From: a virus
Taxonomy: Duplodnaviria > Caudoviricetes
Virus record (IMG/VR): IMGVR_UViG_3300021256_000056
Coordinates: 32,001-96,000 of that record
DNA: 64,000 bases
Strand: one strand, 5' to 3'
A program made the position numbers and the translations under genes. The notes beneath the pieces are model-generated. The model ran no database searches. It saw only the letters and a program-made list of their open reading frames with translations, and was not told the origin of the DNA. Shown in pieces: positions 6,137 to 22,295 of the stretch. How positions within the stretch are numbered: position 1 is the stretch's first letter; each line of letters opens with the position of its first letter.

Positions 6137-6145
6137 GTTATTTTG

Positions 6146-6220: not shown

Positions 6221-6235
6221 ATAGTTTTTAATTTG

Positions 6236-6308: not shown

Positions 6309-6640
6309 AAAAACCTCGCGTATTTTTCGCCCCGCGAGGTGAGCTCCTTGCACGCCTATTTATATACCGTCCGCCAGAATTACGGTGGTGCCCCATTTTG
6401 GCGCCTTCGGGGCAATTGGGGGTTGGCCCTTCTGAAGAAAACGCTTTGCGAATATCCTCAATGGCGGCCAATACCATAAAAATAAGTCACAACATTGCAC
6501 CATCACGCCTTCCACGGTTGAATGTCGCACAGGTGGTTTCTATAATCTAATTTCAGCCGAAACTAGGCTTGCACCTGTGAAGTTTATCCGCGCTAACGTC
6601 TCCAGTTTATTAAGACTGGTGTGCTACTTGTGACTTTAAC

Positions 6641-6763
6641 AGAAAATCATTTAAAAGACTGGATTCGAACCAGCGTTTCCCCTGCTTTCCAGAGGCGTTC
6701 TGACCCCTAAACTACATGTCCGAAGTTTTGGTGGACACAGGTAAAACTTGCTGTTGGTTTTCT
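6641..6763 (-). ncRNA. ACAGCAA-module RNA enclosing tRNA-like D and T arms
   Basis: agaaaacca-ACAGCAA ... gtagtttaggggtcagaac ... gctggttcgaatccagt ... tgattttct. Confidence 0.7.
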
Positions 6764-6832
6764 TTATTTAAGAATATATCAAAATTGTCAAAAAATCAAT
6801 GAAAATGATAGATTTCTAATAAAGTGTCAAAA

Positions 6833-7321
6833 TTAAACTTTTAACCCGAATTTTTTGATTAAATAGCTCTTTTTTTCATCTTTGGGCATGGATACCATGT
6901 AAAGAAAATCATCACCGTGCTTATTGATATAAGCTTCTAATGTACAAATTGTTTTACAAGGAACGCCAGCAGCAACCGTATTGCTTGGTATGTCTCTGTT
7001 CACTACACTTCCCGCCCCAATAATGCTGTTATCTCCAATGGTTACTCCAGGTAAAATAACGCTCCTGCAGCCAATAAAACAATTTTTGCCAATTTTAATT
7101 GGAGCATATATTACCGTTTCTTTGTTTCCATTGGGTAAATTCCTGATAACCCTCGTAGCAGCATCGTGTGTCACAAAGGCGACATCAAAACTCACAGTTG
7201 TATTATCCCCAATCTCAATGAGATACGGCTCAGAGCCGAAATTGCATGTGCCCCCAAAACTAACGTTTTTACCAAGTCTTAAACCGTTGTTAACCGCTTC
7301 TTTTAAATTTGTTACATCCAT
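6833..7321 (-). CDS. hexapeptide-repeat (LbH) acyltransferase
   Basis: IGKNCFIG..SVILPGVTIGDNSIIGAGSVV..DIP..TVAAGVP. Confidence 0.9.
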   Translation of the reverse strand: MDVTNLKEAVNNGLRLGKNVSFGGTCNFGSEPYLIEIGDNTTVSFDVAFVTHDAATRVIRNLPNGNKETVIYAPIKIGKNCFIGCRSVILPGVTIGDNSIIGAGSVVNRDIPSNTVAAGVPCKTICTLEAYINKHGDDFLYMVSMPKDEKKSYLIKKFGLKV

Positions 7322-7333
7322 AAATTATTGATT

Positions 7334-7409
7334 TGGAGCCCCATATTGGACTTGAACCAATAACCTCCTGATTACGAAACAGGTACTCTACCAATTGAGC
7401 TAATGGGGC
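7334..7409 (-). tRNA. tRNA-Thr(CGU)
   Basis: Cloverleaf, loop ttcgtaa, encoded CCA. Confidence 0.9.
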
Positions 7410-7414
7410 GAAAA

Positions 7415-8140
7415 CTATTCATCTTTGTCTTTTAGCGTTTTCTTTTTTCGATGAAACCTTTTACTATTCTTATTTAATGAGCCAAAGTTGGGGGTTAGGC
7501 TATGGCAATTAGGGCACAGTAGTTGCAAGTTTTCAATACGGTTATTTGTACAATCACCATCAATATGGTGAACTTCGAGAGGAACATTCCCCGTAAATTC
7601 GTTAACTTCGCCCCAGTGACATTTTTCGCATTTATTGTCGTGAAGGCTCATTAAGTATTCCTTAATAAACACTGGCACCTGTGAAGCTCCCCTCAAAAAA
7701 TTTTCTCCCCCTAGCCACCTTTCTAATTTGCTTATTTTTGGTGGGGTTTCATTTGTATATTCTTCGTATTCTCTTTCTGGAAACTTTGAACGTATGGAAT
7801 CTGAAATTTTTTTCTTGGTTTCAAAACTGCGTGGGCCACGTTTTACGTTATTATATTTCGCGGCACATGACGAGGAACAAAACTTATTGAATCTTTGTTC
7901 AAAACTCAATTTTCTCCCGCATTCTTCACAATACCTGGGATTTTTATCATATGTTTCCCTTGTTTGTTTGTTTTGATAATATTGTCCAGTAATATTCGCT
8001 TTCTGTTTTATCCTATTAATAAAACGCCAAGAAGCGCCATTGGGCCTCCTTCCAAAATAATTTATAACCTCTTTCTCGGAACAACATGCCTCGAACGCAG
8101 ATATTATTTCTTCAATAGAAATCTCTTCGACCTTTTTCAT
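7415..8140 (-). CDS. free-standing HNH endonuclease
   Basis: CEKC..LEVHHIDGDCTNNRIENLQLLCPNCHS. Confidence 0.9.
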   Translation of the reverse strand: MKKVEEISIEEIISAFEACCSEKEVINYFGRRPNGASWRFINRIKQKANITGQYYQNKQTRETYDKNPRYCEECGRKLSFEQRFNKFCSSSCAAKYNNVKRGPRSFETKKKISDSIRSKFPEREYEEYTNETPPKISKLERWLGGENFLRGASQVPVFIKEYLMSLHDNKCEKCHWGEVNEFTGNVPLEVHHIDGDCTNNRIENLQLLCPNCHSLTPNFGSLNKNSKRFHRKKKTLKDKDE

Positions 8141-8202
8141 ACTCTTTTTTATAATAAATAGTATAAAAGGGTGAAAAAGTCAAGTCGAACCATTGTTTTT
8201 GT

Positions 8203-8277
8203 GGGTGAGTAGTCGGATTCGAACCGACGTAAACCACATCCACAGTGTGGCCCCTAAACCTCTCGGGCATACTCACC
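8203..8277 (-). tRNA. tRNA-His(GUG)
   Basis: Cloverleaf, loop ctgtgga. Confidence 0.9.
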
Positions 8278-8418
8278 ATGTTTGCTGCATTAGTTATACG
8301 TATGCTGCCTGCAGCGAGCCCACGCATGGGTCCCTTATTCCGTTTCGCGGCTAACCCATGAACCGTCGTAGCATGTACCTGACTTCTGCTACGCTGTTCC
8401 TGTGCGTCAGGGTGGTTG

Positions 8419-8491
8419 AGCAGCGTAGCAGAATCGAACTGCCATCTCTAGCATGGCAAGCTAGTATAATCAACCATTATACGAACGCTGC
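8419..8491 (-). tRNA. tRNA-Gly(GCC)
   Basis: Cloverleaf, loop ttgccat. Confidence 0.9.
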
Positions 8492-8613
8492 AAATACTTC
8501 TTTTAGAACAACCCCAGAGAAGTTTAGAACTGTGCCGACCTACGATTCGGACGCTCATTTGACTTTCGTCAGGGAAGGCGCATCTTCGTTCCCGCCGCGG
8601 ACGGGCCAATAGA

Positions 8614-8889
8614 TTATTTAATTAATCGTTTCCGTTCTTCTTTGATAATCTCAAGTCCTGTTTCAATCTGTCTTAACCATTTCCCTTGTTCAGTAATTTT
8701 CGTCTCGGGAAGAGCATTCTTAAACTCGTTAAGGCTCTTTTCGGCATAATCACAGGACTCTTCGTCAAGTAAACTGTCCGCGCTAATTAAAGAAACATAA
8801 TAGAGGTTTAATAACCCAGTCTCGAACATTGTGTTGAGAAGAGTTATTATATCATTCCTAATTTCTTTTTCTGTTCTTTTCTTTTCCAT
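8614..8889 (-). CDS. hypothetical protein
   Basis: Start reassigned to MEKKRTE; the upstream part of the track ORF is tRNA sequence. Confidence 0.7.
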   Translation of the reverse strand: MEKKRTEKEIRNDIITLLNTMFETGLLNLYYVSLISADSLLDEESCDYAEKSLNEFKNALPETKITEQGKWLRQIETGLEIIKEERKRLIK

Positions 8890-8891
8890 TG

Positions 8892-8963
8892 AGCGGGATA
8901 GCAGAATTGGACTGCCATCTTCAGCTTGGAAGGCTGACATAATAACCGTTATACGAATCCCGC
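8892..8963 (-). tRNA. tRNA-Gly(UCC)
   Basis: Cloverleaf, loop cttccaa; T-loop variant GTCC. Confidence 0.85.
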
Positions 8964-8969
8964 AATTAG

Positions 8970-9042
8970 TTGTCGTTACCTGATTCGAACAGATATTTCC
9001 AGGTTCAGAGCCTGGCGTCCTCAACCGTTGGACGAAACGACA
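8970..9042 (-). tRNA. tRNA-Gln(CUG)
   Basis: Cloverleaf, ccagg-ctctgaa-cctgg. Confidence 0.85.
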
Positions 9043-9422
9043 ATTTTAGTAATCCAAATCACTTCTGGGTGTTCTCCAAAAACCGTGTGTGTGACATTAC
9101 ATAGCCATACGGTTAAAATGGGGGCAGCGTCCTCAGAGACTACGGCATCCATTATCTCATTAAATAAATAGCCACTTAATGAATATGTTGCTCCATCATC
9201 ATCATGTTTAAGTCTCGTTAACTTCAATAAACACTGCTTCGGCTCATCAATATTTAGAATAAATCCCGATTCCATTTCAACTTCGAAAGAATCTTTTCCC
9301 TTCGAGAGCAGCTCACACATTTCATCGGCCCCTAAAACCATCTCATTATCTTCAAGACTATGCTCTGGAACGTCGGCATACCAACGCCCGTCTTGCTTGA
9401 AAAATTTGAGTTTCGTTTTCAT
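9021..9422 (-). CDS. hypothetical protein (DUF6717-like)
   Basis: MKTKLKF..RWYADVP..EMVLGAD..VWLCNVT..VFGEHP. Confidence 0.65.
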   Translation of the reverse strand: MKTKLKFFKQDGRWYADVPEHSLEDNEMVLGADEMCELLSKGKDSFEVEMESGFILNIDEPKQCLLKLTRLKHDDDGATYSLSGYLFNEIMDAVVSEDAAPILTVWLCNVTHTVFGEHPEVIWITKIVVSSNG

Positions 9423-9426
9423 ATCG

Positions 9427-9502
9427 TCGAGTAGACAGGGCTCGAACCTGCATGAATCTCCACATCCCAAATGTGGCGAGGAACCAATTCCTCCACTACT
9501 CG
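9427..9502 (-). tRNA. tRNA-Pro(UGG)
   Basis: Cloverleaf, loop tttggga. Confidence 0.88.
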
Positions 9503-9920
9503 ATATGTGGACTCGATTTTTGGTTTTGTATAGCGGTACCAACTACTACGTATTCCACATGTTTTATCGTGCCAAGTCCTCACACGAACCGATATTTTAA
9601 GTGCTCGGTATGCAGTATCGTCCTTCCTGCTTCCATTACACTTTGCGCAACCGTTGGGCGTCGAACCCAAAGCCTTCTGTAGTACTTTCGCCATTAAGCT
9701 GTTAGCAAAAGCAGGTGGTATTGCACTCACCGCGACGGGAGCTACCCGTAATCCATTGTTCGGTTGCGTTTGCCAAGGAAGATGGATTCGAACCATCATT
9801 CACGCATTGTGTGATTGCGCCACCGCTTATTCCTTATTATTTACACACAAAGTAATATTCAGCGGAATCCCCTTGTGGATAGGGGCGGTTTGCCATTGTC
9901 CTACTCCTTGTTTAAATGCA

Positions 9921-10052
9921 TTACCTGCCCTGACCTCTATATGCTTTTACATAATGTTTTGAATTCTTCAATTTTGAAGTTCTGCATTTTGATACAATGC
10001 CTGGGCGCTTCTTGTGAAGCCTTTGGGTTGCCGATGTTGCTCTGTTTGCCAT
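9921..10052 (-). CDS. 43-aa basic peptide ending YRGQGR
   Basis: MANRATSATQRLHKKRPGIVSKCRTSKLKNSKHYVKAYRGQGR; TAnnTTTG promoter at ~10067-10075. Confidence 0.7.
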   Translation of the reverse strand: MANRATSATQRLHKKRPGIVSKCRTSKLKNSKHYVKAYRGQGR

Positions 10053-10101
10053 TTTCTTAATTTTTCACAAATATACATTTATTTTTTATAAAAATCAATA
10101 G

Positions 10102-10216
10102 TCGGGGAAGAAGGAATCGAACCTCCGCTAACGGCACCCAAAGCAATTTGACGCTGCTGTTAGTTTTCAATACTGAAAACATTTAAAACGTCGTGCTACC
10201 ACTACACTATTCCCCA
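10102..10216 (-). tRNA. tRNA-Pro(UGG) with 44-nt ACAGCA-module insert at 29/30 (10145-10188)
   Basis: Removing the insert gives acggc-tttgggt-gccgt; G72/A73 Pro identity. Confidence 0.8.
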
Positions 10217-10223
10217 AAATTTG

Positions 10224-10340
10224 TGAGGAGGATGGGACTCGGACCCATGACCCACGGGTTAAAAGCCAAGGTGAGGTTGCTGTTAGTTTTCAGTACAGAA
10301 AACGTTTTATACGTTGCTCTACCAACTGAGCTACCTCCTC
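10224..10340 (-). tRNA. tRNA-Lys(UUU) with 44-nt ACAGCAA-module insert at 29/30 (10268-10311)
   Basis: Removing the insert gives acggg-cttttaa-cccgt. Confidence 0.82.
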
Positions 10341-10346
10341 AAAATT

Positions 10347-10393
10347 GCGACGATAGGAGGAGTCGAACCTCCAATCATGCCAAATCTATCGTC
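10347..10393 (-). ncRNA. tRNA minihelix-like RNA (acceptor plus T arm only)
   Basis: gacgata...ggagg-ttcgact-cctcc-tatcgtc-g. Confidence 0.6.
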
Positions 10394-10428
10394 AACCGTC
10401 AACTTAAGACAACGTGTTACCACGTTTG

Positions 10429-10511
10429 TGGCCCCTGTGGGACTCGAACCCACACCCCATTGCTGGGAGTAGATTTTGAGTCTACCGCGTATACCATTCC
10501 GCCAAGGGGCC
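10429..10511 (-). tRNA. tRNA-Leu(CAA)
   Basis: Cloverleaf with long V arm, loop ctcaaaa. Confidence 0.92.
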
Positions 10512-10615
10512 ATAAATAAAGAAGCCAGGCAACACTGCGACATTTTCAGAGTTTTTGTGACCACTTTGCTGGTACCCTACTTAAGTGGTTGCCCTACCAA
10601 CCTCGGGCTTCTTAG

Positions 10616-10689
10616 TACCCCCTGTAGGATTCGAACCTACGACCCGCAGATTAGAAATCTGCTGCTCTGTCCAACTGAGCTAAGAGGGC
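10616..10689 (-). tRNA. tRNA-Arg(UCU)
   Basis: Cloverleaf, loop tttctaa. Confidence 0.92.
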
Positions 10690-10694
10690 TTTTG

Positions 10695-10769
10695 TGCTCC
10701 TAGAAGGACTCAAACCTTCAACCTTATCCTTAGGACGGATTTGCGCTGATTCAATTGCGCCATAGGAGC
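10695..10769 (-). tRNA. tRNA-Arg(CCU)
   Basis: Cloverleaf, loop gtcctaa. Confidence 0.85.
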
Positions 10770-10778
10770 ATTTGTTGC

Positions 10779-10881
10779 GGCAGTAAACCGAATCGAACGG
10801 CTATCAACCACCGACGGTGGTCATTCTTCGTGCGGGTTTCATTTAATTGCAGCTGCACAATACCCATTAAACTATACTGCC
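10779..10881 (-). ncRNA. aberrant tRNA-like RNA with expanded D region
   Basis: ggcagta/tactgcc acceptor, T arm ccgttcgattcgg, extra hairpin in D loop, non-canonical anticodon arm. Confidence 0.55.
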
Positions 10882-10886
10882 ATTTG

Positions 10887-11010
10887 TTGCGGGTGAGGGA
10901 GTCGAACCCCCGTCTTTTCGTTATGGGTGAAATTACGATGTAAGTTGCCGCAAGATTTCCATGCGAAAACCTTTTTTGCTTTTACATGCTAACCATTGCA
11001 CTAACCCGCA
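10887..11010 (-). tRNA. tRNA-fMet(CAU)-like with variant module insert (GCGGCAA)
   Basis: tgcgggt acceptor, cccataa loop, insert ggttttc-gcat-ggaaatctt-gcggcaa. Confidence 0.65.
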
Positions 11011-11018
11011 ATATTGTG

Positions 11019-11421
11019 TGGAGATGGGCGGACTCGAACCGCCGTTTTTCAAGCTTGCAAACTGCTTTCTACGCGCTTAGTTTTCTTTATGATTCGTTGG
11101 GCACTGGTGGAAAACACACCTGAGTACTCAATATATCATTCTGGAAACGTAGCCAAACCAGACGAATGAAACTGGCCTGCCGCTCTCGATTTGATGATGC
11201 CCTCATATTGTGAATTCAACCAAGACCAAACATTCACGAGGACAATCGTCCCGACACATCCTAGGTGCCGATGGATTAGGCTTATTTGCTTAGCAAATTA
11301 AGCGGCGATTGCATAGGTGTTGTTGCCAACTAATTTTTTTGATATTTGTTTAAAGGCTAAAAATCAAAACGCCTGCGTGCTTACAATCCTCATAGATTGA
11401 AATCAAAACCAAAACATCCCC
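11019..11421 (-). ncRNA. ssrA: tmRNA, tag GNNTYAIAA
   Basis: 5' ggggatg, 3' ggcggttcgagtccgcccatctcca, internal ggcaacaacacctatgcaatcgccgcttaa. Confidence 0.93.
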
Positions 11422-11430
11422 ATGTTTTTG

Positions 11431-11503
11431 TACCCGATACAGGACTCAAACCCATACTCTGGGAGCCGTATTCCCAAGTTCTATTCAGTTAAACTAATCG
11501 GGC
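11431..11503 (-). tRNA. tRNA-Arg(ACG)
   Basis: Cloverleaf, loop atacggc. Confidence 0.8.
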
Positions 11504-11643
11504 TTTTTATTTTATTTTCATTTTCTCTATATTCCTTTTTTCTATATCTTCTTACCGAAGAATCATTCCTGCTTCCAAAATTTTCTGTCATTGCATGGCA
11601 ATTTGGACATAAAACTTCTATGTTTTCTTCTGTTACATTTGTT
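11481..11643 (-). pseudogene. HNH endonuclease remnant
   Basis: VTEENIEVLCPNCHAMTENFGSRN C-terminus only; upstream ATG out of frame. Confidence 0.8.
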
Positions 11644-11676
11644 TATTAATAAATAATTAGATAAGAAAGATTTGAG

Positions 11677-11750
11677 AGCCCTCAGTCGGAGTCGAACCAA
11701 CACTTCATCCATACCACAGATGCGTACTCAGCCTTTAATACGATGAGGGC
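11677..11750 (-). tRNA. tRNA-Thr(GGU)
   Basis: Cloverleaf, loop gtggtat. Confidence 0.85.
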
Positions 11751-11855
11751 AAATCGCCAGGTGAAGCTAACCTGGCCCCCGTGAACTACCAGCCAGCCCT
11801 GCACCACGGGTGTTGATATGAGTACTGGTTGCATATCAACTTACAAGCTTACTTG

Positions 11856-11930
11856 TGCTCCCGATGGGACTCGAACCCATAACCCACTGTTTAAGAGACA
11901 GTTGCGCTCAACCAATTGCGCCACGAGAGC
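11856..11930 (-). tRNA. tRNA-Lys(CUU)
   Basis: Cloverleaf, loop ctcttaa. Confidence 0.9.
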
Positions 11931-11940
11931 AGTTATTATG

Positions 11941-12012
11941 TAGCGGATAGGAGAGTCGAACTCCTCTCTCAAGATTGAGAATCTTACGTCCTAACCGATA
12001 GACTAATCCGCC
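11941..12012 (-). tRNA. tRNA-Glu(CUC)
   Basis: Cloverleaf, loop ttctcaa. Confidence 0.88.
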
Positions 12013-12213
12013 ATTATCATATTACACAATGTTACATGTTTTATAAAAAATAAAGCATTGCGGATTTCCGTAGTCACCGCAATCGTTCTCCTCCTGCTAC
12101 CGTATACGACAGGCTAAGGCGAACTATAAGAACTTACCTATATTCGAACCTTTTCCTCTTAATCCACTTTATAAGAGTATGCTATAGGGTTCCCCACCTT
12201 GGTACTTTGATTT

Positions 12214-12372
12214 GTCGCGCATCTTGGAATCGAACCAAGTTCCTCTGGGGTTAGCAGCCCAGCGAGTTTTGTGTCTCCGCAGACTTGCAATCTACAATTA
12301 AGCGTCGTTGCAACTCAACTTAATCTGAATGTAGTATCCGCTTCTGTGCGTCTCCAACACTCTCATACGCGG
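12214..12372 (-). ncRNA. tRNA-like RNA with GCU anticodon arm and large insertion 5' of it
   Basis: cgcgta/tgcgcg acceptor, ctggg-ctgctaa-cccca, T arm cttggttcgattccaag. Confidence 0.55.
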
Positions 12373-12505
12373 ACAAGGCAGCGTGTATGCATCACCTTCT
12401 GACCTTGTAGAACGGACTTATATACATACCGTAACATTTTCGTAGTATGTAATTTCATCTGTTTTGTGTCTCCGACGAGGCTCGAACTCGTGACCCCCAC
12501 ATTAA

Positions 12506-13341
12506 CCTACCCAATATAGTTGCCTATACCATCTTACGATGTTTGAGTTTGGACCATTTCTTATCCATGCCACTTCGTGGTTTAGGTGGTGGTGTATGGC
12601 CTCTACACATTTATGCAAAAAAGCAATTTAGCCCGACGTTTTCCCAGGGGGATGTTCGTCGAATTAGCCACCATTCACGACAAGGGTTTCCCCTCGTGTG
12701 CTCCTTTCTTAGATTCACGTAAACATGAAATGCATAACCCGCTTTTAGTTTCCCTATGAAGCGGTTTTCCACATTTTTTGCACACGTGTTTGTACGTGTG
12801 GGTGTGTGTGGTTGTTTTAACCCCCTTCATATTTTTCTTTCCAGCGTAACTATCTGTTTGTGAATGGCAATTAGGACACAAAATCACTAGATTGTCGAGT
12901 TCATTATTAAAATGGTCTCCATCTTTATGATGAACTTGCAACGTTATGCTTTTACCATGCCACTCAGAAATTCCGCATTCTGGATTTTCGCACTTATATT
13001 CTTTCAGCCCCAATGAAATTAGTTTTTTCATTAATTCCGAAGATTTTATAAGTTTGTCTTTAACAAAAAAATCCTCTTTGTCTAGACCGTTGTGATTTTT
13101 ATTTCCGATGTTCGATTTTTGTCCAGTGAAATGTGAGGTATCTAGGTCGTATTCTTTCACGTATTTGTAAAACGTTCTATAATTACCACCAACAGGTTTC
13201 CATCCCACAGCACGACAAAAATCAGCAACACTAAAAACACGTTTACATATCTCTATTGCCTCTTCTTTACCAATTACATTTTTTGTCATAATAACACTTT
13301 TATAATAAATAGTGTTTAATTGGTAAAAGTAAGAAGATTTG
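12506..13341 (-). mobile_element. group I intron (IC3-like) with HNH ORF, inserted after U34
   Basis: 5' exon ends U, intron ends G; P/Q/R/S-like aattcgacgaa, cgtcgggctaaat, gtgtagaggc, aagaaatggtcc. Confidence 0.88.
12675..13289 (-). CDS. intron-encoded HNH homing endonuclease
   Basis: LQVHHKDGDHFNNELDNLVILCPNCHSQT. Confidence 0.9.
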   Translation of the reverse strand: MTKNVIGKEEAIEICKRVFSVADFCRAVGWKPVGGNYRTFYKYVKEYDLDTSHFTGQKSNIGNKNHNGLDKEDFFVKDKLIKSSELMKKLISLGLKEYKCENPECGISEWHGKSITLQVHHKDGDHFNNELDNLVILCPNCHSQTDSYAGKKNMKGVKTTTHTHTYKHVCKKCGKPLHRETKSGLCISCLRESKKGAHEGKPLS

Positions 13342-13399
13342 AAGTGTGGTGCTCTACCAACTGAGCTACGGAGACTTTCCTTAAATTACCATAAAATTG

Positions 13400-13475
13400 T
13401 TGCGCAGGACGGGCTCGAACCGACGACTTCCAGGATATGAATCTGGTGCTCTACAACCAACTGAGCTACTGCGCA
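13400..13475 (-). tRNA. tRNA-Met(CAU)
   Basis: Cloverleaf, loop ttcatat. Confidence 0.85.
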
Positions 13476-13483
13476 ATATTTTG

Positions 13484-13556
13484 CGGAGACGGGCGGAGTC
13501 GAACCACCGACGCGGGGCTCTTCAGGCCCCCGCTCTACCAACTGAGCTACGTCTCC
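13484..13556 (-). tRNA. tRNA-Phe(GAA)
   Basis: Cloverleaf, loop ctgaaga. Confidence 0.92.
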
Positions 13557-13561
13557 AAAAA

Positions 13562-13661
13562 AAAGGTAAAATCTTCGAAGATTGCTGCAGCGGAAGTCCC
13601 CGAGTCGAACGGTGGTTACCTGGTGCCCCTTGCATACAATACTGCAACAAATTTTACCTTT
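13562..13661 (-). ncRNA. structured RNA candidate with T-loop
   Basis: aaggtaaaat/attttacctt and ttgttgcag/ctgcagcaa stems enclosing ccgttcgactcgg. Confidence 0.5.
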
Positions 13662-13662
13662 G

Positions 13663-13738
13663 TGGGTGTCCTGAGACTCGAACTCAGAAACCTCTTGTGT
13701 ATCAGACAAGTGCTCTCAACCAATTGAGCTAGGCACCC
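13663..13738 (-). tRNA. tRNA-Ile(GAU)
   Basis: Cloverleaf, loop ctgatac. Confidence 0.9.
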
Positions 13739-13748
13739 AGAAATTTTG

Positions 13749-14466
13749 TGGGACAGGAGGGACTCGAACCCTCACCCTCCTTAGAGGACTGGTTCCTCGT
13801 ACCACTATGGCTTTCGCCACCAAAACAACTTCGAACTTGCGGGTTGGATTTTCAAGGCTTGTACACCCCCAGGTTGTCTTGTTTGTGGTCTGGACTGTAT
13901 CTTAACCATATTGAAATCTAGCTAGTAAACATCCTTATACTTATAGTCTCGTAGTTTAATGTGGGTCACGCGACCACCCCTAGCTCATATAAGCATGTTA
14001 TTTCAACTTAGGCTCCTCCTGTATCTCGTCTCTACACACTGTCTATTATTCTATATCTGCGGTCCCTTGTTCTCAGGCTATATTCATTACTGAAGTATAG
14101 TCTTGCAGTATAGATTTTAACATTGGCTCGGCATTAGCATATTATTCCTATTGGGGTTTTACAAGTTTCGCTTATAGTTTTATTCCGATATTCACGGTGT
14201 CCCACAAAACCAATATTTGAATAACTTAGCTTTCACCGAATTAGGAAGGTTCTACATAACGGGTTTCCCCGCGTCCACAGGCTACTCTCCCGTTTGGGAT
14301 TGTTTACCTTATCTATCACGCTTCGCAGCGTCCTGTGGTATGCACTCAAGTTAAACGGGCGCCTATCCGCATACAGAGTGTCTCAGTCTGTAATCTCCAA
14401 GTATAGGTTATCAGTATAAGCCCGTTGTTCATAAGACCAGCGCGTCTACCATTCCGCCACTGTCCC
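13749..14466 (-). tRNA. tRNA-Leu(UAG) split by group I intron
   Basis: Exons 14433-14466 and 13749-13797 join to ctggt-cttagga-accag. Confidence 0.9.
13798..14432 (-). mobile_element. group I intron after U34, no ORF
   Basis: U at 5' splice site, terminal G; core segments shared with introns at 26726 and 27550. Confidence 0.88.
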
Positions 14467-14605
14467 AAAATTAGATAAGGGTGTATAATGCTGCCCTTGC
14501 TATATTGTGTGGCAACCCTTAAATGAGATTTTCCAAATACCTTTGTCTGCCATATTCTCAGGTGCTCATTACTGTAGCATTGATTATGTATATGAAGGTT
14601 ACCAC

Positions 14606-14691
14606 TGGTGCGGCAGGTGAGACTCGAACTCACACGGGATTGCTCCCACCACCCCCTCAAAGTGGCGCGTCTACCATTCCGCCACTGCCGC
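14606..14691 (-). tRNA. tRNA-Leu(GAG)
   Basis: Cloverleaf, loop ttgaggg, encoded CCA. Confidence 0.9.
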
Positions 14692-14857
14692 ATAAATATA
14701 TTGTTTTTAAATGGCCCTGGAATCTGTATTGACCACTAAGGGGGTAATCCTCCATCTACAGAATCTGTACCATCAGGTTTATCCCATTGGTTCCCTAAGA
14801 CCCATTCTTTTTCTCGGTGCGTGGTGACACCTCAAACCGTGAATATATACCTAGTTG

Positions 14858-14930
14858 TGGAGGATACGAGACTCGGACTCGTGACCCCCTGCTTGCAAAG
14901 CAGGTGCTCTACCGACTGAGCTAATCCCCC
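14858..14930 (-). tRNA. tRNA-Ala(UGC)
   Basis: Cloverleaf, G3-U70, loop tttgcaa; T-loop GTCCGA. Confidence 0.9.
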
Positions 14931-15242
14931 TTCATGGTCCTCTTTTAATCGCTATTCATTTAGGGAGCAGGAAGGACCAGTCCTATGACGTGTTAGCCTC
15001 AAACGCCATTCTAAGAGGTTCCTCAAAAATGCACTGCAGTATATGGTGTCCACCATTGCCCCTAATCGCCACCGCTTTCGGAGGGGTTTTGATACCATAG
15101 CATCATCGGAGAAATAAACGGGTTACTTAGTTATCGCTTGGCGCATAGACGCCTCAAACTTGCCTGTTGGCCACCCTTCGTGAGGTACAGAATAACTTAC
15201 TGTTTCTATGCCTTCAGTTACTGCCTCACCCTCACCCGTTCG

Positions 15243-15314
15243 TAGCGGATAGGAGAGTCGGACTCCTCTCTCAAGAATGAAAATCTTGCGTCCTAACCGA
15301 TAGACTAATCCGCC
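15243..15314 (-). tRNA. tRNA-Glu(UUC)
   Basis: Near copy of Glu(CUC) at 11941; loop ttttcat. Confidence 0.88.
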
Positions 15315-15453
15315 ATAAATTAAGAGCATAACGGTGTTTCGAACCACCGTTAATTGTTACCAGCGTGCGTTTCCTCTAATACACCAACCGAGTTTATTGT
15401 TTGCTCTGGGACCGTGGCCTTTAGTCCATTATCGAGCCCTCTGGTATCTCTTG

Positions 15454-15520
15454 TGCGTAAACATGGAGTCGAACCACGTTATTTCTAGGATTGCATTGCC
15501 TCTATATGCTATTTTACGCA
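15454..15520 (-). ncRNA. tRNA-like RNA lacking a proper anticodon arm
   Basis: gcgtaaa/tttacgc acceptor, D arm, gtggttcgactccat T arm. Confidence 0.5.
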
Positions 15521-15665
15521 AATAAGAGCATTATGAAGTCTCGAGCCTTCATAAATTGTTACTTAGCGTGCTCGTCCATCTTTACACTATTCCCGTTAAG
15601 AGTCCTTCCTTTTCACGTTGCCTAGAACTTTTCCGAAAAGAGAACTCACCTCTAAGTATCTCTTG

Positions 15666-15748
15666 TGGGCAGGGAGGGATTCGAACCCCCGAAGCCGTGA
15701 GGCAGCAGATTTACAGTCTGCCCGTTTTGACCGCTTACCTACCTACCC
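15666..15748 (-). tRNA. tRNA-Tyr(GUA)
   Basis: Cloverleaf with V arm, loop ctgtaaa. Confidence 0.92.
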
Positions 15749-15880
15749 ATAAAAAAACTTAAGCCACTCGCGTCCCACAGGTCTGTTCTCGCTTTTATTA
15801 AGAGGTGCACACGAGATTACTCTCCCTCCTTTAAAGTAAGTCGCCCTCCTAAGCCTTGTCCGCTTAAGTTAAAAAACAAC

Positions 15881-15947
15881 GGGAAACATTTTTACGTATG
15901 TTCAGAAAGAAAGTCGGAATTTTAGTAAATTTTGCTGTTAGTTTCCC
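15881..15947 (-). ncRNA. stand-alone ACAGCAA module with Glu(UUC)-like anticodon stem-loop
   Basis: gggaaac-ta-ACAGCAA...ttccga-ctttctt-tctgaa...gtttccc. Confidence 0.7.
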
Positions 15948-15952
15948 TTTAG

Positions 15953-16074
15953 AGCTGATGCAAGGAATCGAACCTCGGTCTGCGGCTTGGAATGCATTTC
16001 TTGATTTTTGCTGTCCGTAACCTTGTCAGAATACCTTATTTGAAAACGCTGTGCTACCACTACACCACATCAGC
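15953..16074 (-). tRNA. tRNA-Gly(UCC) with 51-nt ACAGCAA-module insert at 29/30 (15996-16046)
   Basis: Removing the insert gives gcggc-attccaa-gccgc. Confidence 0.8.
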
Positions 16075-16254
16075 TTATATTAAAATCTCCTGTTTGCCTC
16101 GGGTGGACGCGTCGGGCTGAATCCGCCCATCACCCTTAACACCTCGCCATTATGCTATGGCTTTATTCCATACTGCATAAAGGTTTTCCTACCACGTGGG
16201 TCACATAATGTCAACCTGATTGTTGGTTATGTAGCTCCCTCAGAGATAATAAAT

Positions 16255-16332
16255 TGGCGGTGCGTACGGGATTCGAACCCGTGAACTCCACCGTGACAGG
16301 GTGGCATGATAGACCAGCTTCACCAACGCACC
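16255..16332 (-). tRNA. tRNA-Asp(GUC)
   Basis: Cloverleaf, loop ctgtcac, encoded CCA. Confidence 0.92.
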
Positions 16333-16334
16333 GT

Positions 16335-17150
16335 ATGCTTTTTCGGTTTAACATTAACCGTATTACTGGCGGTTTTGGTATCGCACTTTTCCGCCTTAGT
16401 GCGTCCGAATTTCACGGAAGCCTTACTATCGCGAATAATGTACTTAAGGCTACTACCAAGGTGACTTGTGGAGCAGCCCTTCGCGATTATGATGCCACAA
16501 TGCACTTGGTTTATAATTTAAGGTTACCTAAAGTAGATGTGCCTTGGATTCGCACCTCTCACGGAGACTTTTTACACCAAAACCACTATAGTCAATTTTG
16601 GATATTAAGTTACTCAGCCTTTGACCCGATATACCATTTCACACCACTGCAGCTGGCGGCGATTTTGTACCTGGCCATACTCATTGTCACTTTAGTTTTT
16701 CGCGCTCGGGCTCCCTGCCCGTGTTGGCGTTGCAACCTCTGACTACTCTCACGGTTAAAACTGTGGGGGGTTCTTGGGAGCAAACACAAAGTGCTTTGGG
16801 AAGCATAGCCTATTGGCTTACTTTAACTCCACACAGGGGTAGTCCTCCCCTGTCCCAAATACATGTTTAGCCCTTGGTTTTCAGGCTTGTATTCTCGTTT
16901 TTTCGAGGTAAATTCGCCCCTTTTTGGTACCCAACGCATTGGAGAGTCGAACTCCGCTGCTTGCATATTCGAAAACACGCCCAAGGGGACCCTACTACCG
17001 TTCGGGATTACTGCTAAATTAAGAGCCATAGCATATTCGAATTCCGCTATGTTGTTACCGAATGTGCGAACGTCTCTTGCATTTCACACCGCTGCTAATC
17101 GTACTCCATTGCTATACGCGTAATAGCAACTTAAGGAGCCCTTTCCAGTA
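16335..17150 (-). ncRNA. large structured ncRNA candidate (GOLLD/ROOL-like context)
   Basis: ~800 nt, GC-enriched, hairpin-rich, no credible ORF, between tRNA-Val and tRNA-Asp. Confidence 0.5.
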
Positions 17151-17157
17151 TCTCTTG

Positions 17158-17232
17158 TGGGAGTGGAGGGATTCGAACCCCCGACATCTACCTTGTAAGG
17201 GTAGCGCTCTAAACCAGCTGAGCTACGCTCCC
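17158..17232 (-). tRNA. tRNA-Val(UAC)
   Basis: Cloverleaf, loop cttacaa. Confidence 0.92.
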
Positions 17233-17572
17233 GTTTCTCACCTAAGACTAACGCGCTAATCTGTCATTCGCAATGCACTAGGTGTATAACTTTTTTTATA
17301 CGTGCAGTTCTAACCCCCTTCGTGACCCCTCAGTGCTACTATAGTCGCCCTATATTTGGATTACTGACGATACCCTACACCTACTCATCACGCCATTTAA
17401 CCGTGGCTCTCTCGCATTGTTCCAATCTACGAGAGGCCCCCCCACGGTGAGGCCGTTAGTCGGATTTGACTTGAGCAAGAAGTCTGAATTGAACAGCAAG
17501 TTCCGTCCTTACGTAGCGAACAAGGGACGGACGTCTCCCGAACCTGGGTATCTTGCTAAAAAATGTGTAACC

Positions 17573-17706
17573 AGAAATCAGAAATGTTTTACTCTACCTA
17601 CTGAGCTACATGGGAAGAATACCGTAACTCCCACGGAGGGACTCGAACCCTCGTCCTTAGTTTTACAGACTTACAAACAATTAATGAACTTGCTGTAAGA
17701 TTTCTT
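17573..17706 (-). ncRNA. circularly permuted tRNA(GUA)-like RNA closed by ACAGCAA module
   Basis: Order: module, ctgtaaa loop, T arm, loop-closed acceptor (cgtggga/tcccatg), D arm, module 3' strand. Confidence 0.78.
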
Positions 17707-17732
17707 CACGTTACACGGTGATGGTATTTTTG

Positions 17733-17807
17733 CGGGAAGAGAGGGGCTCGAACCCTCGACCTAAGGATTAACAGTCCTTTGCTACCACCAGCTGAGCTAC
17801 CTTCCCG
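17733..17807 (-). tRNA. tRNA-Asn(GUU)
   Basis: Cloverleaf, loop ctgttaa. Confidence 0.92.
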
Positions 17808-18122
17808 AAATTACAGGCACGTAAACGAAATGCCCTCAGACTTCCCAATGGTTTATAGATTAAAGACCTAAAACCATTATGCGGCTCCTTCACACCTACG
17901 AAAAACAGTCTTTGTCAACTACCACGTGTTATAGTATTGTAGGCAAGTTATTCTAACGTCAAACTGCCATGACGATGGTTGCTATTACGCCACACCAAAA
18001 ATAGCGGGTCTGTTTACTAAACAAGAAATTGACCGCAGGTTGGATTTACACCAACTTACTCCCAGTAAAATCCAGGGCTTCAAATTACAAAAGCCTCGCA
18101 CGGTTGATTCCTTGTAGAAATA

Positions 18123-18236
18123 CGGGAAGCGTTTTACGTCCAACGGACGGGGGCGGACTTGAACCGCCGAACCTCTCAAGTTCTGATTTTCAGTCGGAAT
18201 TGTTAAACCTTTGTTGAGATTGCTGTGTGCTTCCCT
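18123..18236 (-). ncRNA. ACAGCAA module enclosing Phe(GAA) anticodon arm and T arm
   Basis: gggaagc-ac-ACAGCAA...ttccga-ctgaaaa-tcagaa...ggcggttcaagtccgcc...gcttccc. Confidence 0.75.
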
Positions 18237-18240
18237 GTTG

Positions 18241-18325
18241 CAGGCGCTGGAGGATTCGAACCCCCGAGGAATTTAATCCTGCTGGTTTTGGAGACCAGTG
18301 CCTTCGACCGCTCGGCCAAGCGTCT
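18241..18325 (-). tRNA. tRNA-Trp(CCA) with long variable arm
   Basis: ctggt-ctccaaa-accag then caggattaaattcct V arm. Confidence 0.85.
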
Positions 18326-19028
18326 GTATATATTCCATTAATCCTTTTTTATCGAATGGTAGTCCGTAATGCTTAAACCATTTTCTTATAGCATTATCCG
18401 ACACTCCAAAAGACTTTCCGACTTGTAAAAAACTTCTTTTAACTAAAAAAAGATTAATTAAAGTTTCTTTTGATGGGTGATTTCTTTCCCATGCGCATTC
18501 TCGCGCTTCTATCCAATCTTCTTTGTTTGTGTGTCTTTTCTTTACTATGGTTTTAGTAGTGGATTCGTATTTATTTGAATTTTTTCCTGCATAAGTATCC
18601 GTTTGTGAATGACAATTTGGGCATAATAACATGAGATTTTCAATCCTATTATCGTCATGTATACCATTGATATGGTGGAGTTGTAATGATATCGGTTTAC
18701 CATTCCATTCGCAAATTCCACATTGTGGATTCTCACACTTATTTTCTTTTAAGCCACACTCAATTAGTCTTTTTTTTAGCCGACTTTTGTTTGTGTATAA
18801 ACTATGTTCAACTAGAATGTCATCCATGGGAATTTTTTCTCTGTAGCTTTTTGTCATTCGTTTATAAGAGAATCTTAATTCCAGCCCGAGTTCCTTTGCA
18901 AGCGCCCTTACCTCTTTATAATCTTCCCCGCCAACGTTTTCTATTCCGAGTCTATGACAAAGGTCCAACATATTAACACATTTGTCGTAATTTTCAATTA
19001 ACCTGTCTATCGCGTATTCTCGATTCAT
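18273..19028 (-). CDS. free-standing HNH endonuclease
   Basis: LQLHHINGIHDDNRIENLMLLCPNCHSQT; C-terminal HTH-like segment; reads into tRNA-Trp. Confidence 0.9.
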   Translation of the reverse strand: MNREYAIDRLIENYDKCVNMLDLCHRLGIENVGGEDYKEVRALAKELGLELRFSYKRMTKSYREKIPMDDILVEHSLYTNKSRLKKRLIECGLKENKCENPQCGICEWNGKPISLQLHHINGIHDDNRIENLMLLCPNCHSQTDTYAGKNSNKYESTTKTIVKKRHTNKEDWIEARECAWERNHPSKETLINLFLVKRSFLQVGKSFGVSDNAIRKWFKHYGLPFDKKGLMEYIQTLGRAVEGTGLQNQQD

Positions 19029-19216
19029 AATATTCTTTTTATTATAAATAGTATGAAAAGAGAAAAATCGAACCTTTTTGGAAATTTTTATTTAGTTCGA
19101 ATATATAATGAAAAATGAATTTTCCTCTAAGGGGAGTAGTCTAACTCCCCAGTGTGTTTTATGACCTTTTCAGCAAACCAATGTAAAAACCCAATAACTA
19201 TGGTTGTAAAAATTTC

Positions 19217-19281
19217 GGAAATCTGTTTTTCAGAATATTAGATTAAAAGTCTAGTCCTTGATAAATTGCTGTAAGATTTCC
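19217..19281 (-). ncRNA. stand-alone ACAGCAA module with Lys(UUU) anticodon stem-loop
   Basis: ggaaatct-t-ACAGCAA...taga-cttttaa-tcta...agatttcc. Confidence 0.78.
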
Positions 19282-19283
19282 TC

Positions 19284-19374
19284 TGGCGGAGAGGCTGGGA
19301 TTCGAACCCAGGGGACGCTCAACACGCCCAACGGTTTTCAAGACCGCCGCTATCGACCACTCAGCCACCTCTCC
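19284..19374 (-). tRNA. tRNA-Ser(UGA)
   Basis: Cloverleaf, loop cttgaaa, encoded CCA. Confidence 0.93.
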
Positions 19375-19383
19375 ATTAAATTT

Positions 19384-19456
19384 GAACTGCAAAAGGATTC
19401 GAACCTTTACCCGTGGACTATGCCCGCGTGTCCTGTCCATTAGACGATACAATTTT
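19384..19456 (-). ncRNA. pseudo-tRNA with non-canonical anticodon loop
   Basis: D arm cgtctaatggacaggac, T arm aaaggttcgaatccttt, loop gcatagt. Confidence 0.5.
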
Positions 19457-19524
19457 TTATCGCAGTAAAGAGGCCACCACTGATTTAACACGGCATCAGC
19501 AATGACAACCACTACGCCACGTGT

Positions 19525-19605
19525 GCTGGGGTATGGTGATTCGAACACCAATTATTCTCACGCCCTTAGGGCTTGAGGCGGTACTACCGTTGTACTACAC
19601 CCCAG
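19525..19605 (-). ncRNA. pseudo-tRNA with extended anticodon arm
   Basis: ctggggt acceptor, D and T arms, ctcaagccc-taa-gggcgtgag arm. Confidence 0.5.
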
Positions 19606-19693
19606 TTTATGTCTCTCCAAAGTCACGCCACTTTTGGGTATTTATATCGCGGGGGCAGGTGTCGCCCTCGCTTATGGTAATTTATCTCAATAT

Positions 19694-19705
19694 TGTCAAA
19701 GAACG
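19694..19705 (-). promoter_or_regulatory. boxA-like antitermination element
   Basis: GTTCTTTGAC just downstream of promoter; also at 24835, 27494, 28200. Confidence 0.6.
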
Positions 19706-19722
19706 TGTGTTCCGAAGAACTC

Positions 19723-19775
19723 TGGTGCAAATATATATGTAATTTTTCAAACTACAAAATATTTTTGCATTTTTT
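19723..19775 (-). promoter_or_regulatory. Bacteroidota-type promoter (TTTG ... TAnnTTTG), duplicated at 24851-24906
   Basis: aaatattttgtagtttgaaaaattacatatatatttgca on minus strand. Confidence 0.75.
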
Positions 19776-19780
19776 TTTTG

Positions 19781-19857
19781 TCTAGGAGATGAGACTCGAA
19801 CTCACATTATCCTGGCTCCTGACCAGGCAACCTCACATCCAATTGGTTTACTCCTAG
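19781..19857 (-). tRNA. atypical tRNA, Pro(AGG)-like
   Basis: C1-G72, A73; cctgg-tcaggag-ccagg with C33. Confidence 0.5.
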
Positions 19858-19872
19858 TTATATTTCAATTTG

Positions 19873-20259: not shown

Positions 20260-20266
20260 ATGTATT

Positions 20267-21395: not shown

Positions 21396-21462
21396 GGAAA
21401 ACTTTTTGTTAAAATTCGAAGTTTGGAATCGGATTTGGTCTAATATTTGCTGTCGGTTTTCC
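21396..21462 (-). ncRNA. stand-alone ACAGCAA module with Trp/Gly-like loop
   Basis: ggaaaac-cg-ACAGCAA...cga-ttccaaa-cttcg...gttttcc. Confidence 0.65.
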
Positions 21463-22234: not shown

Positions 22235-22295
22235 AGGAAACATTAAAATCAACATTATCAGTGTTTATTTGACGAAAGGTTGCTGTGTGTTTCCT
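22235..22295 (-). ncRNA. stand-alone ACAGCAA module with Ile(GAU) anticodon stem-loop
   Basis: aggaaaca-c-ACAGCAA...aaca-ctgataa-tgtt...tgtttcct. Confidence 0.78.

What the first reader, a model, noticed from the sequence alone, without database searches (positions are those of the whole stretch)
10102..16074. Precise 44/44/51-nt inserts at position 29/30 of three otherwise perfect tRNAs
Seen: deleting 10145-10188, 10268-10311 and 15996-16046 restores fully paired anticodon stems: Pro acggc/gccgt, Lys acggg/cccgt, Gly gcggc/gccgc. All three inserts sit between nt 29 and 30, start and end with U, and carry a hairpin plus ACAGCA. They are far too short for group I/II introns. Established: short enzyme-spliced tRNA introns at non-canonical positions are known in archaea, not as a rule in bacteria or their phages. 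Inference: either a new protein-spliced tRNA intron class (a conditional reserve of tRNAs) or permanently tagged tRNA mimics.
Basis: partly seen in the sequence, partly recalled or inferred. Interest (0 to 1): 0.9.

Follow-up and report, generated by a model that had tools for sequence, protein, structure and literature searches.

The report
tRNA-shaped phage RNAs carrying protein handle
Three tRNA genes of a giant rumen phage carry, at one exact spot in the anticodon stem, a conserved side arm (hairpin plus ACAGCA) that is more likely a kept docking handle for a Ro60-like protein than an intron, which would make them an undescribed kind of tRNA-mimicking partner RNA.

Summary
Three tRNA-shaped genes (Pro-UGG, Lys-UUU, Gly-UCC) carry 44, 44 and 51 nt between nt 29 and 30, and removing them restores perfect 5-bp anticodon stems.

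The insert is not private to these genes. It is the hairpin-closed form of a "stem + ACAGCAA" handle that also closes at least 7 free-standing small RNAs in the same tRNA array. Those RNAs carry anticodon-like hairpins or rearranged tRNA bodies.

- **Site:** two more insert tRNAs in related phages use the same 29/30 site, and their hairpin stems covary.
- **Partner protein:** in an unrelated phage group, my covariance model finds handle RNAs just downstream of a DUF2828/DUF7788 gene in every locus with downstream DNA. It finds none in 818 kb of control viral DNA.
- **Fold:** that protein models confidently as Ro60.
- **Literature:** the handle matches the motif of Dictyostelium Class I RNAs, which keep it when mature.
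- **Against splicing:** no bulge-helix-bulge, EndA or RtcB was found.

The partner gene is absent from this half-complete record. It is present in the only complete relative.

Best reading (0.55): unspliced, handle-tagged tRNA mimics. Splicing is not excluded (0.2), because no usable RNA junction data were obtained.

This scan has noted the same handle before on other DNA (more than 100 genomes). I re-tested those leads here.

The parts
10102..10216 (-). tRNA-Pro(UGG)-shaped gene; the 44-nt handle insert is at 10145-10188, between nt 29 and 30
   Evidence: Rfam tRNA 41.8 bits; exon and insert boundaries and restored stem; 7-bp hairpin + UAACAGCAG
10224..10340 (-). tRNA-Lys(UUU)-shaped gene; the 44-nt handle insert is at 10268-10311, between nt 29 and 30
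   Evidence: Rfam tRNA 47.7 bits; hairpin GUUUUC/GAAAAC + UAACAGCAA
15953..16074 (-). tRNA-Gly(UCC)-shaped gene; the 51-nt insert is at 15996-16046, between nt 29 and 30, and is a degenerate handle (ACAGCAA present, hairpin weak)
   Evidence: Rfam tRNA 45.5 bits; alignment A6
15881..15947 (-). free-standing handle RNA right after the Gly gene: GGGAAAC..ACAGCAA..anticodon-like hairpin..GUUUCCC
   Evidence: model R1 52.1 bits, a training sequence
17572..17706 (-). free-standing handle RNA whose cargo is a rearranged tRNA, in the order GUA anticodon hairpin, T arm, loop-closed acceptor stem, D arm
   Evidence: weak Rfam YrlA match 31.4 bits against a cut-off of 69
18123..18236 (-). free-standing handle RNA (GGGAAGC/GCUUCCC) with a GAA anticodon-like hairpin and a T arm
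19217..19281 (-). free-standing handle RNA with a Lys-type anticodon hairpin (UAGA CUUUUAA UCUA)
   Evidence: R1 66.3 bits; the same hairpin occurs in unrelated phage locus L260:11609-11674
21396..21462 (-). free-standing handle RNA
22235..22295 (-). free-standing handle RNA with a CUGAUAA (Ile-type) loop
23568..23625 (-). free-standing handle RNA with a CUGAUAA (Ile-type) loop, followed by a U run
6630..6770 (-). probable further handle RNA (AGAAAAC CA ACAGCAA, only a 6-bp closing stem) with tRNA-like cargo
   Evidence: it fails the strict 7-bp test

Best explanation
The three genes are tRNA-shaped RNAs that keep their insert. The insert is a conserved handle: a short helix followed by (U/A)ACAGCAA. 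Here the helix is closed by a hairpin loop and grafted between nt 29 and 30 of the anticodon stem, directly 5' of the anticodon loop. Elsewhere in the same array the same handle forms the terminal stem of small RNAs that display anticodon-like hairpins or rearranged tRNA bodies.

By inference, the handle is the docking site of a Ro60-shaped protein of the DUF2828/DUF7788 family. If so, these molecules are Y-RNA-like partner RNAs that present a tRNA body and anticodon loop to, or on, that protein. They may act as mimics or decoys in the contest over tRNAs between phage and host, rather than as decoding tRNAs.

Shown: the anatomy; the family; the covariation; the conserved site; the gene neighbourhood in other phages; the Ro60-like fold.

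Inferred: that protein and handle bind; that the insert stays in the mature RNA; the biological role.
For: 1. The same motif recurs. ACAGCAA with a 7-bp closing stem within 140 nt occurs at 8 of 12 motifs on the array strand, against 58 of 774 in control viral DNA. The copies are listed.
2. The stem is real. On alignment A3 (15 RNAs from this and 4 other phages), 98.3% of cells pair. All 8 pairs show changes on both sides, and there are 39 such cells against 12.2 in shuffles (0 of 500 shuffles reach this). Slid controls pair at 27-50%.
3. The insert form and the free form are circular permutations. In both, the GAAAAC strand is followed by UA-ACAGCAR, then a linker, then the 5' strand of an anticodon arm.
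4. The site is conserved. Two further insert tRNAs in related phages (L364:702-828 and 983-1111) have the insert at 29/30, with a covarying hairpin (CAUUUU/AAAAUG) and UUAACAGCA.
5. There is a protein link. Unrelated contig L213/L260 has a handle array 2.7 kb downstream of a 554-aa DUF7788 protein. In 8 of 8 held-out homologous loci that have downstream DNA, model R1 finds handle RNAs on the same strand at 27-54 bits. The best score in 818 kb of control loci is 22.8 bits.
6. That protein models at pLDDT 92.9. Its 12 best PDB matches are all Ro60/TROVE proteins, E 5e-7 to 2e-4, and it has an invariant DxSxS motif.
7. G008 is the only complete relative of this phage (355 kb). It encodes the protein at E 1e-207, with a handle across the gene's 5' UTR.
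8. Dictyostelium Class I RNAs have the same layout, 5' stem + CCUUACAGCAA ... 3' stem (PMC5054030), and keep it when mature (PMC7919456).
9. Each insert tRNA duplicates an isoacceptor that is intact (Pro-UGG 9426-9502, Gly-UCC 8891-8963). For Lys-UUU the second copy is only an earlier, unchecked note of a group-I-intron gene near 12467-13375.
10. No bulge-helix-bulge is present, and no EndA or RtcB is encoded.
Against: No member of the Ro60-like family is encoded in the 195-kb record, even with a maximum-sensitivity profile search. The record is only 53% complete, so absence from the phage is not established.

No experiment or RNA read shows that the insert persists.

Excision would restore flawless tRNAs in 5 of 5 cases, and the discriminator bases fit the anticodons: U73 for Gly, A73 with G72 for Pro, A73 for Lys, G73 for Asn. 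This is what one expects of genes selected to yield working tRNAs.

The Gly insert has a poor hairpin.

The protein association was tested in one protein clade (51-72% identity) plus one relative, not across the whole family.
Confidence: 0.55

Rival explanations
1. The inserts are a new kind of protein-dependent tRNA intron. The handle is the recognition signal for a cleavage-and-ligation machinery that is not EndA or bulge-helix-bulge based. It removes the handle to give decoding tRNAs, and would circularise or re-join the free-standing and rearranged forms.
For: Precise restoration of 5-bp anticodon stems in 5 of 5 genes, always at 29/30. Acceptor and discriminator identity matches the anticodon. 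The rearranged tRNA at 17572-17706 resembles permuted tRNA genes that need cut-and-join processing. An Rnl2-type RNA ligase is present in complete relative G008.
Against: No bulge-helix-bulge, strict or relaxed. No EndA or RtcB in this record or in five relatives, including a complete genome. The same handle is the terminal stem of 56-67-nt RNAs that hold only an anticodon-like hairpin, where splicing yields nothing useful. The homologous-looking Class I RNAs keep the handle when mature. All three duplicate other isoacceptor genes.
Confidence: 0.2
2. The RNAs are kept whole and act on their own, without a Ro60-like partner, as decoys or sponges for host anticodon nucleases or tRNA-modifying enzymes. 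The handle only stabilises or blocks them.
For: The displayed loops include Lys-UUU and Tyr-GUA types. From general knowledge, these are targets of known anticodon nucleases. No partner gene is in the available record.
Against: A stabiliser does not explain the strict conservation of ACAGCAA from phages to amoebae, nor the tight linkage to one protein family.
Confidence: 0.12
3. The inserts are selfish or decaying insertions of a small mobile repeat into spare tRNA genes and have no function.
For: The motif is repeated in the array, HNH endonuclease genes lie nearby, and the Gly copy looks degenerate.
Against: The exons stay perfect. The site and handle are conserved with compensatory changes in related phages. 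A goat-gut relative's DNA contig (28 other letters over about 808 nt, roughly 96.5% identity) keeps the whole Pro insert and nearly all of the Lys insert without gaps.
Confidence: 0.06
4. The insert is a small self-cleaving or self-splicing ribozyme.
For: It is structured and has a conserved single-stranded motif.
Against: At E up to 10 the insert region gives only a sub-threshold match to an HtrA RNA-thermometer element (16.2 bits, cut-off 52) and no ribozyme or group I/II intron match. At 44 nt it is far below group I/II size.
Confidence: 0.03

Closest known systems
Ro60/Rsr with Y RNAs, especially bacterial and phage YrlA (Rfam RF02553)
   Same: A small RNA combines a protein-binding helix with a tRNA-like module. 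The rearranged copy at 17572-17706 has the YrlA order of T arm, closed acceptor stem and D arm. The partner candidate folds like Ro60, with a helical TROVE-like ring part plus a vWA domain with a MIDAS motif.
   Different: Rfam YrlA scores are far below its cut-off: 15.8-31.4 bits against 69. The handle sequence (stem + ACAGCAA) is not the Y RNA Ro-binding helix. The protein belongs to DUF2828/DUF7788, not Pfam TROVE. Here the handle sits inside an otherwise complete tRNA with a free acceptor end and a real anticodon loop.
Class I RNAs of dictyostelid social amoebae
   Same: A 5' stem strand is directly followed by (C)CUUACAGCAA, then a variable middle, then the 3' stem strand, for a total of 42-65 nt (PMC5054030, PMC7919456). 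Window copies read GGAAAUCUUACAGCAA and GGAAAACUUACAGCAA and are 56-67 nt long.
   Different: They are known only from Dictyostelia, and the paper found none elsewhere. No tRNA cargo is described for them. Their known binder is an RRM protein, Rnp1A/Cibp. The tRNA-insert form has the stem closed by a loop.
Archaeal and eukaryal protein-spliced tRNA introns, and permuted or split tRNA genes
   Same: Short inserts at a non-canonical position in the anticodon stem, precise restoration of the tRNA on removal, and coexistence with a rearranged tRNA gene.
   Different: No bulge-helix-bulge motif, no splicing endonuclease and no RtcB. The setting is bacterial-type (a tmRNA gene in the array). The insert sequence is itself a conserved RNA module used elsewhere as a terminal stem.
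Group I introns in bacterial and phage tRNA genes
   Same: They interrupt the anticodon arm of tRNA genes. One seems to be present in this array (weak Rfam hit at 12527-12722).
   Different: Group I introns are at least about 200 nt with a catalytic core. These inserts are 44-51 nt and match no such model.

Membership tests
Bulge-helix-bulge tRNA introns (archaea/eukaryotes) | Both splice sites lie in 3-nt bulges separated by a 4-bp helix | tested here: not met
   Neither a strict test nor a relaxed one (0-3 nt between the helix and each cut) finds a helix for any of the three
Bulge-helix-bulge tRNA introns (archaea/eukaryotes) | A splicing endonuclease (PF01974) and an RtcB-type ligase are available | tested here: not met
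   Neither is in G000 or in relatives, including complete G008. The host genome is unknown. An Rnl2-type ligase occurs only in G008
Bulge-helix-bulge tRNA introns (archaea/eukaryotes) | Mature RNA lacks the insert | tested here: inconclusive
   One search lists no joint across any insert among the rows shown. The output was truncated and the runs are assembled contigs
Group I / group II introns and known ribozymes | A match to a catalytic-core model | tested here: not met
   No ribozyme or intron family matches the inserts at E up to 10; the only overlapping row is a sub-threshold HtrA thermometer match
YrlA-type Y RNA (RF02553) | A score at or above the Rfam gathering cut-off of 69 bits | tested here: not met
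   21.5 and 15.8 bits across the insert tRNAs; 31.4 bits at 17561-17677
YrlA-type Y RNA (RF02553) | Encoded with a Ro60/Rsr (TROVE) gene | tested here: not met
   No PF05731 hit in G000. The associated protein elsewhere is Ro60-like in fold only
Dictyostelid Class I RNA | A short terminal stem plus the adjacent 11-nt motif CCUUACAGCAA, total 42-65 nt | tested here: inconclusive
   Met in form by 5 free-standing copies of 56-67 nt sharing 7-10 of the 11 motif letters. The tRNA inserts carry a loop-closed version. Common descent is not shown
Handle RNAs beside DUF2828/DUF7788 Ro60-like genes (provisional family of this scan) | A covarying helix directly followed by ACAGCAA | tested here: met
Handle RNAs beside DUF2828/DUF7788 Ro60-like genes (provisional family of this scan) | A partner protein gene in the same genome | tested here: not met
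   Absent from the 195-kb record, which is 53% complete. Present in complete relative G008
Handle RNAs beside DUF2828/DUF7788 Ro60-like genes (provisional family of this scan) | Physical binding of the protein to the handle | not testable with these tools
   Only gene neighbourhood and fold are available

The most novel reading that the evidence does not exclude
The handle is the signal of a third, so far unknown, protein-catalysed tRNA cut-and-join system in phages. The Ro60-like ring protein would hold the handle while an RNA ligase re-joins the ends. Handle-bearing and rearranged genes would then be a conditional reserve of tRNAs, released for example when host anticodon nucleases strike.
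Probability: 0.12. Interest if true: 0.95.

Novelty: new variant of a known kind. Interest (0 to 1): 0.72.

Why it matters
If the handle is kept, phages make complete tRNA bodies, with correct acceptor identity and real anticodon loops, that are wired to a Ro60-like protein. That would be a new architecture for Y-RNA-type particles and a new player in the phage-host contest over tRNAs.

The handle also equals the conserved motif of Dictyostelium Class I RNAs, whose molecular role has been open since 2004. That link gives a concrete protein candidate to test.

If instead the insert is removed, it would be the first short protein-spliced tRNA intron class in a bacterial virus.

In the library searched, I found no paper describing either the RNA outside Dictyostelia or any function of DUF2828.

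Tried and rejected
- **Read laying.** I laid three rumen RNA libraries and one goat-gut DNA run on 6000-25000. No joint across any insert appears among the listed rows. However, 87 joints were not shown, and all runs are assembled contigs that cannot show mature ends. This says nothing either way about splicing.
- **Contigs in RNA libraries.** Some run unbroken over 17693-18278, and one runs from upstream into the Gly 5' exon plus 8 nt of insert (16039-16197). These may be precursor RNA or contaminating DNA.
- **Exact-pattern scans of IMG/VR.** GAAAACTAACAGCA gave chance coding hits, which I re-used as control DNA. The hairpin pattern gave nothing. GGAAANCTTACAGCAA gave 1 real locus among 118.
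- **Relatives found through the hexapeptide transferase.** G001-G004 have tRNA arrays but no handles, no long tRNAs and no DUF2828.
- **First structure model.** The model from 4 sequences was unusable at pLDDT 48. A PDB sequence search gave nothing.
- **Model R1 limits.** R1 does not detect long-cargo or hairpin-type handles, so counts made with it are lower bounds.
- **Branch-point resemblance.** ACUAAC resembles the yeast branch point, but other copies read CUUAC, ACCGAC or CACAC, so I dismissed it.
- **Common scaffold.** The Pro and Gly insert tRNAs are 69% identical, sixth highest of 351 pairs. This is suggestive only.


Full report
**Setting.** The window is positions 32001-96000 of a 195-kb IMG/VR virus record that CheckV rates 53% complete. 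Between 6000 and 25000 the minus strand holds 35 ARAGORN tRNA genes, a tmRNA gene (11018-11421) and a CUA suppressor tRNA. Near-identical DNA occurs in ruminant gut metagenomes.

**The observation.**
- ARAGORN misses the three genes. The Rfam tRNA model finds them as full-length matches with one large insertion each: 10102-10216 at 41.8 bits, 10224-10340 at 47.7 bits and 15953-16074 at 45.5 bits.
The 44-, 44- and 51-nt inserts begin and end with U.
- The joined sequences are 71-73 nt. They have 5-bp anticodon stems and the loops UUUGGGU, CUUUUAA and AUUCCAA.
- Pro and Lys carry GUUUUC-loop-GAAAAC followed by UAACAGCA. Gly has ACAGCAA but no convincing hairpin.

**The insert is one form of a repeated module.**
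- On the array strand, a purine-rich strand followed after 1-3 nt by ACAGCAA recurs at 23616, 22286, 21453, 19272, 18226, 17696 and 15938, and probably at 6754. Each time a complementary strand lies 40-120 nt downstream.
- Between the two strands lies an anticodon-like hairpin. The loops seen are CUGAUAA twice, CUUUUAA, CUGAAAA and CUGUAAA. At 17572-17706 the cargo is a whole rearranged tRNA body: anticodon hairpin, T arm, loop-closed acceptor stem, D arm. Rfam scores this copy weakly as YrlA, 31.4 bits against a cut-off of 69.
- In the insert tRNAs the same helix is capped by a loop and the tRNA's acceptor end is free, so the two forms are circular permutations of each other. The break is at 29/30 in the inserts and nearer 26/27 in the rearranged copy.
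- The closing stem is not chance. ACAGCAA has a 7-bp closing stem within 140 nt at 8 of 12 sites on the array strand, against 58 of 774 in 1.96 Mb of control viral loci.

**Comparative evidence for site and structure.**
- Relatives of this phage were found through its 627-aa ORF, at 64-72% identity.
- Two of them, G010 and G007, carry two more long tRNAs. Both have the insert between ACG and the last two stem bases, which is 29/30 again. The hairpin has changed to CAUUUU/AAAAUG while UUAACAGCA is kept. The anticodon loops differ: CUUUCCC and the Asn-type CUGUUAA.
- The five insert tRNAs fall into two body types, each carrying several different anticodons.
- Another relative, G006, has an uninterrupted Lys-UUU tRNA that is 86% identical to the Lys 3' exon.
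- A goat-gut DNA contig at about 96.5% identity keeps the whole Pro insert and nearly all of the Lys insert without gaps.

**Link to a protein, tested here.** Earlier notes of this scan claimed that the handle travels with a Ro60-shaped DUF2828 protein. I treated that as a lead and tested it.
- A pattern scan gave one true locus, L213/L260, from an unrelated 73-kb phage contig. About nine handle RNAs with quite different stems lie 2.7 kb downstream of a 554-aa ORF. That ORF matches DUF7788 at 37 bits, and DUF2828 weakly.
- On 15 short handle RNAs from this window and four such loci, the 8-bp stem pairs in 98.3% of cells. All 8 pairs change on both sides. The covariation score is 0.91 against 0.28 in shuffles (0 of 500 reach it), and slid controls score at most 0.17. 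The sequences were chosen for having a stem, so the percentage paired is partly circular. The diversity of the pairs is not.
- Model R1, built on this alignment, finds no match above 22.8 bits in 818 kb of control viral DNA. It finds 27 matches of 26-54 bits in held-out loci that encode homologues of the protein at 51-72% identity.
- These matches occur in all 8 such loci that include downstream DNA. They are on the gene's strand and mostly within 0.1-1.6 kb of its end.
- With an 86-sequence alignment the protein models at pLDDT 92.9. Its 12 best PDB matches are all Ro60/TROVE proteins: Xenopus and human Ro60, Deinococcus Rsr and a Thermus phage Ro60, at E 5e-7 to 2e-4 over 480-580 columns. 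vWA domains follow further down the list. DxSxS is invariant.
- The family is large, with 2006 clusters at E up to 0.001.

**The gap in this genome.**
- The 195-kb record encodes no member of this family, by Pfam models, tblastn or a maximum-sensitivity profile search of all ORFs.
- Of five larger relatives, only the complete one has the gene: G008, 355 kb with terminal repeats, at E 1e-207. There a handle spans the gene's 5' UTR and start.
- G006, G007 and G010 have R1 handle matches but are 41-60% complete.
- The partner may therefore lie in the missing half. This is an inference.

**Intron tests.**
- No bulge-helix-bulge can be drawn, strict or relaxed.
- No ribozyme or intron model matches the inserts.
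- EndA and RtcB are absent from this record and from the relatives. An Rnl2-type ligase appears only in G008.
- The RNA libraries gave no usable junction information.
- Some facts favour real tRNA function. The exons are flawless, and the discriminators fit the anticodons: U73 with G1-C72 and C2-G71 for Gly, A73 with G72 for Pro, A73 for Lys, G73 for Asn. The identity rules come from established knowledge; the bases are.
- This keeps the splicing model alive, or else implies that the mimics are charged.

**Literature.**
- The search pattern published for Dictyostelium Class I RNAs is GTTGRCCTTACAGCAA, then up to 120 nt, then GTCAACTG (PMC5054030).
- These RNAs are 42-65 nt with a terminal stem and an adjacent 11-nt motif. 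They are stable and abundant in that form, and the authors found them in no other organisms (PMC7919456).
- Two window copies read GGAAAUCUUACAGCAA and GGAAAACUUACAGCAA.
- In the library searched, I found no paper on short protein-spliced tRNA introns in phages or on any function of DUF2828.

**Verdict.**
- Kept handle, with the RNAs acting as partners or mimics of a Ro60-like particle: 0.55.
- A handle-directed splicing system: 0.2.
- Stand-alone decoys: 0.12.
- Selfish insertion: 0.06.
- Ribozyme: 0.03.

The same handle has been reported by this scan in more than 100 other genomes. The points new to this window are three insert tRNAs at one site, the second pair in relatives with compensatory changes, and the match between acceptor identity and anticodon.

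Noticed in passing
L274:4999-5054, L276:4990-5048, L278:4999-5054, L260:~6001-6060, L363:~1460-1510 (G008): A handle-like stem + AACAGCAA structure spans the 5' UTR or first codons (MFNSK = AUGUUUAACAGCAAA) of the Ro60-like gene itself. This suggests the protein may regulate its own mRNA by binding a handle.
   Followed up: partly
window 12467-13375 (Rfam hit 12527-12722): A weak group I intron match (34.4 bits, cut-off 50) with an HNH ORF (12675-13289).
   Followed up: no
window 23983-24090 (-): A 108-nt tRNA match (44.7 bits) with an odd anticodon arm and a long two-hairpin variable region. It has no ACAGCAA.
   Followed up: partly
window 23647-23827 (-): An fMet-like tRNA 5' part runs into AUACAGCG and a hairpin, and is followed by another tRNA-like fold. 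This may be a further handle variant.
   Followed up: no
window 10341-10427 (-): An acceptor stem plus T arm minihelix (GACGAUA ... GGAGGUUCGACUCCUCC UAUCGUC) without D or anticodon arms lies between tRNA-Leu and the Lys insert tRNA.
   Followed up: no
window 9503-10101, 10770-11017, 13557-13661, 15315-15664 (-): Many intergenic stretches of the array contain isolated T-arm-like GGUUCGAnUCC hairpins and other strongly structured RNA of unknown kind.
   Followed up: no
window 22154-22226 (-) and 11018-11421 (-): A CUA suppressor tRNA and a tmRNA gene (tag GNNTYAIAA). In this part of the genome ORFs are not obviously longer with TAG read as Gln.
   Followed up: partly
L260:11240-11350: In the unrelated phage, a hairpin-type handle sits inside an RNA closed by a 7-bp acceptor-like stem that ends in an encoded GCCA.
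   Followed up: partly
L278:1654-1783: A tRNA match with a 54-nt long-stem insert in the D loop. It has no ACAGCAA, so it is a different kind of interrupted tRNA.
   Followed up: partly
L264:1065-1249: A Hatchet ribozyme match above the Rfam cut-off (55.4 bits), upstream of the Ro60-like gene.
   Followed up: no
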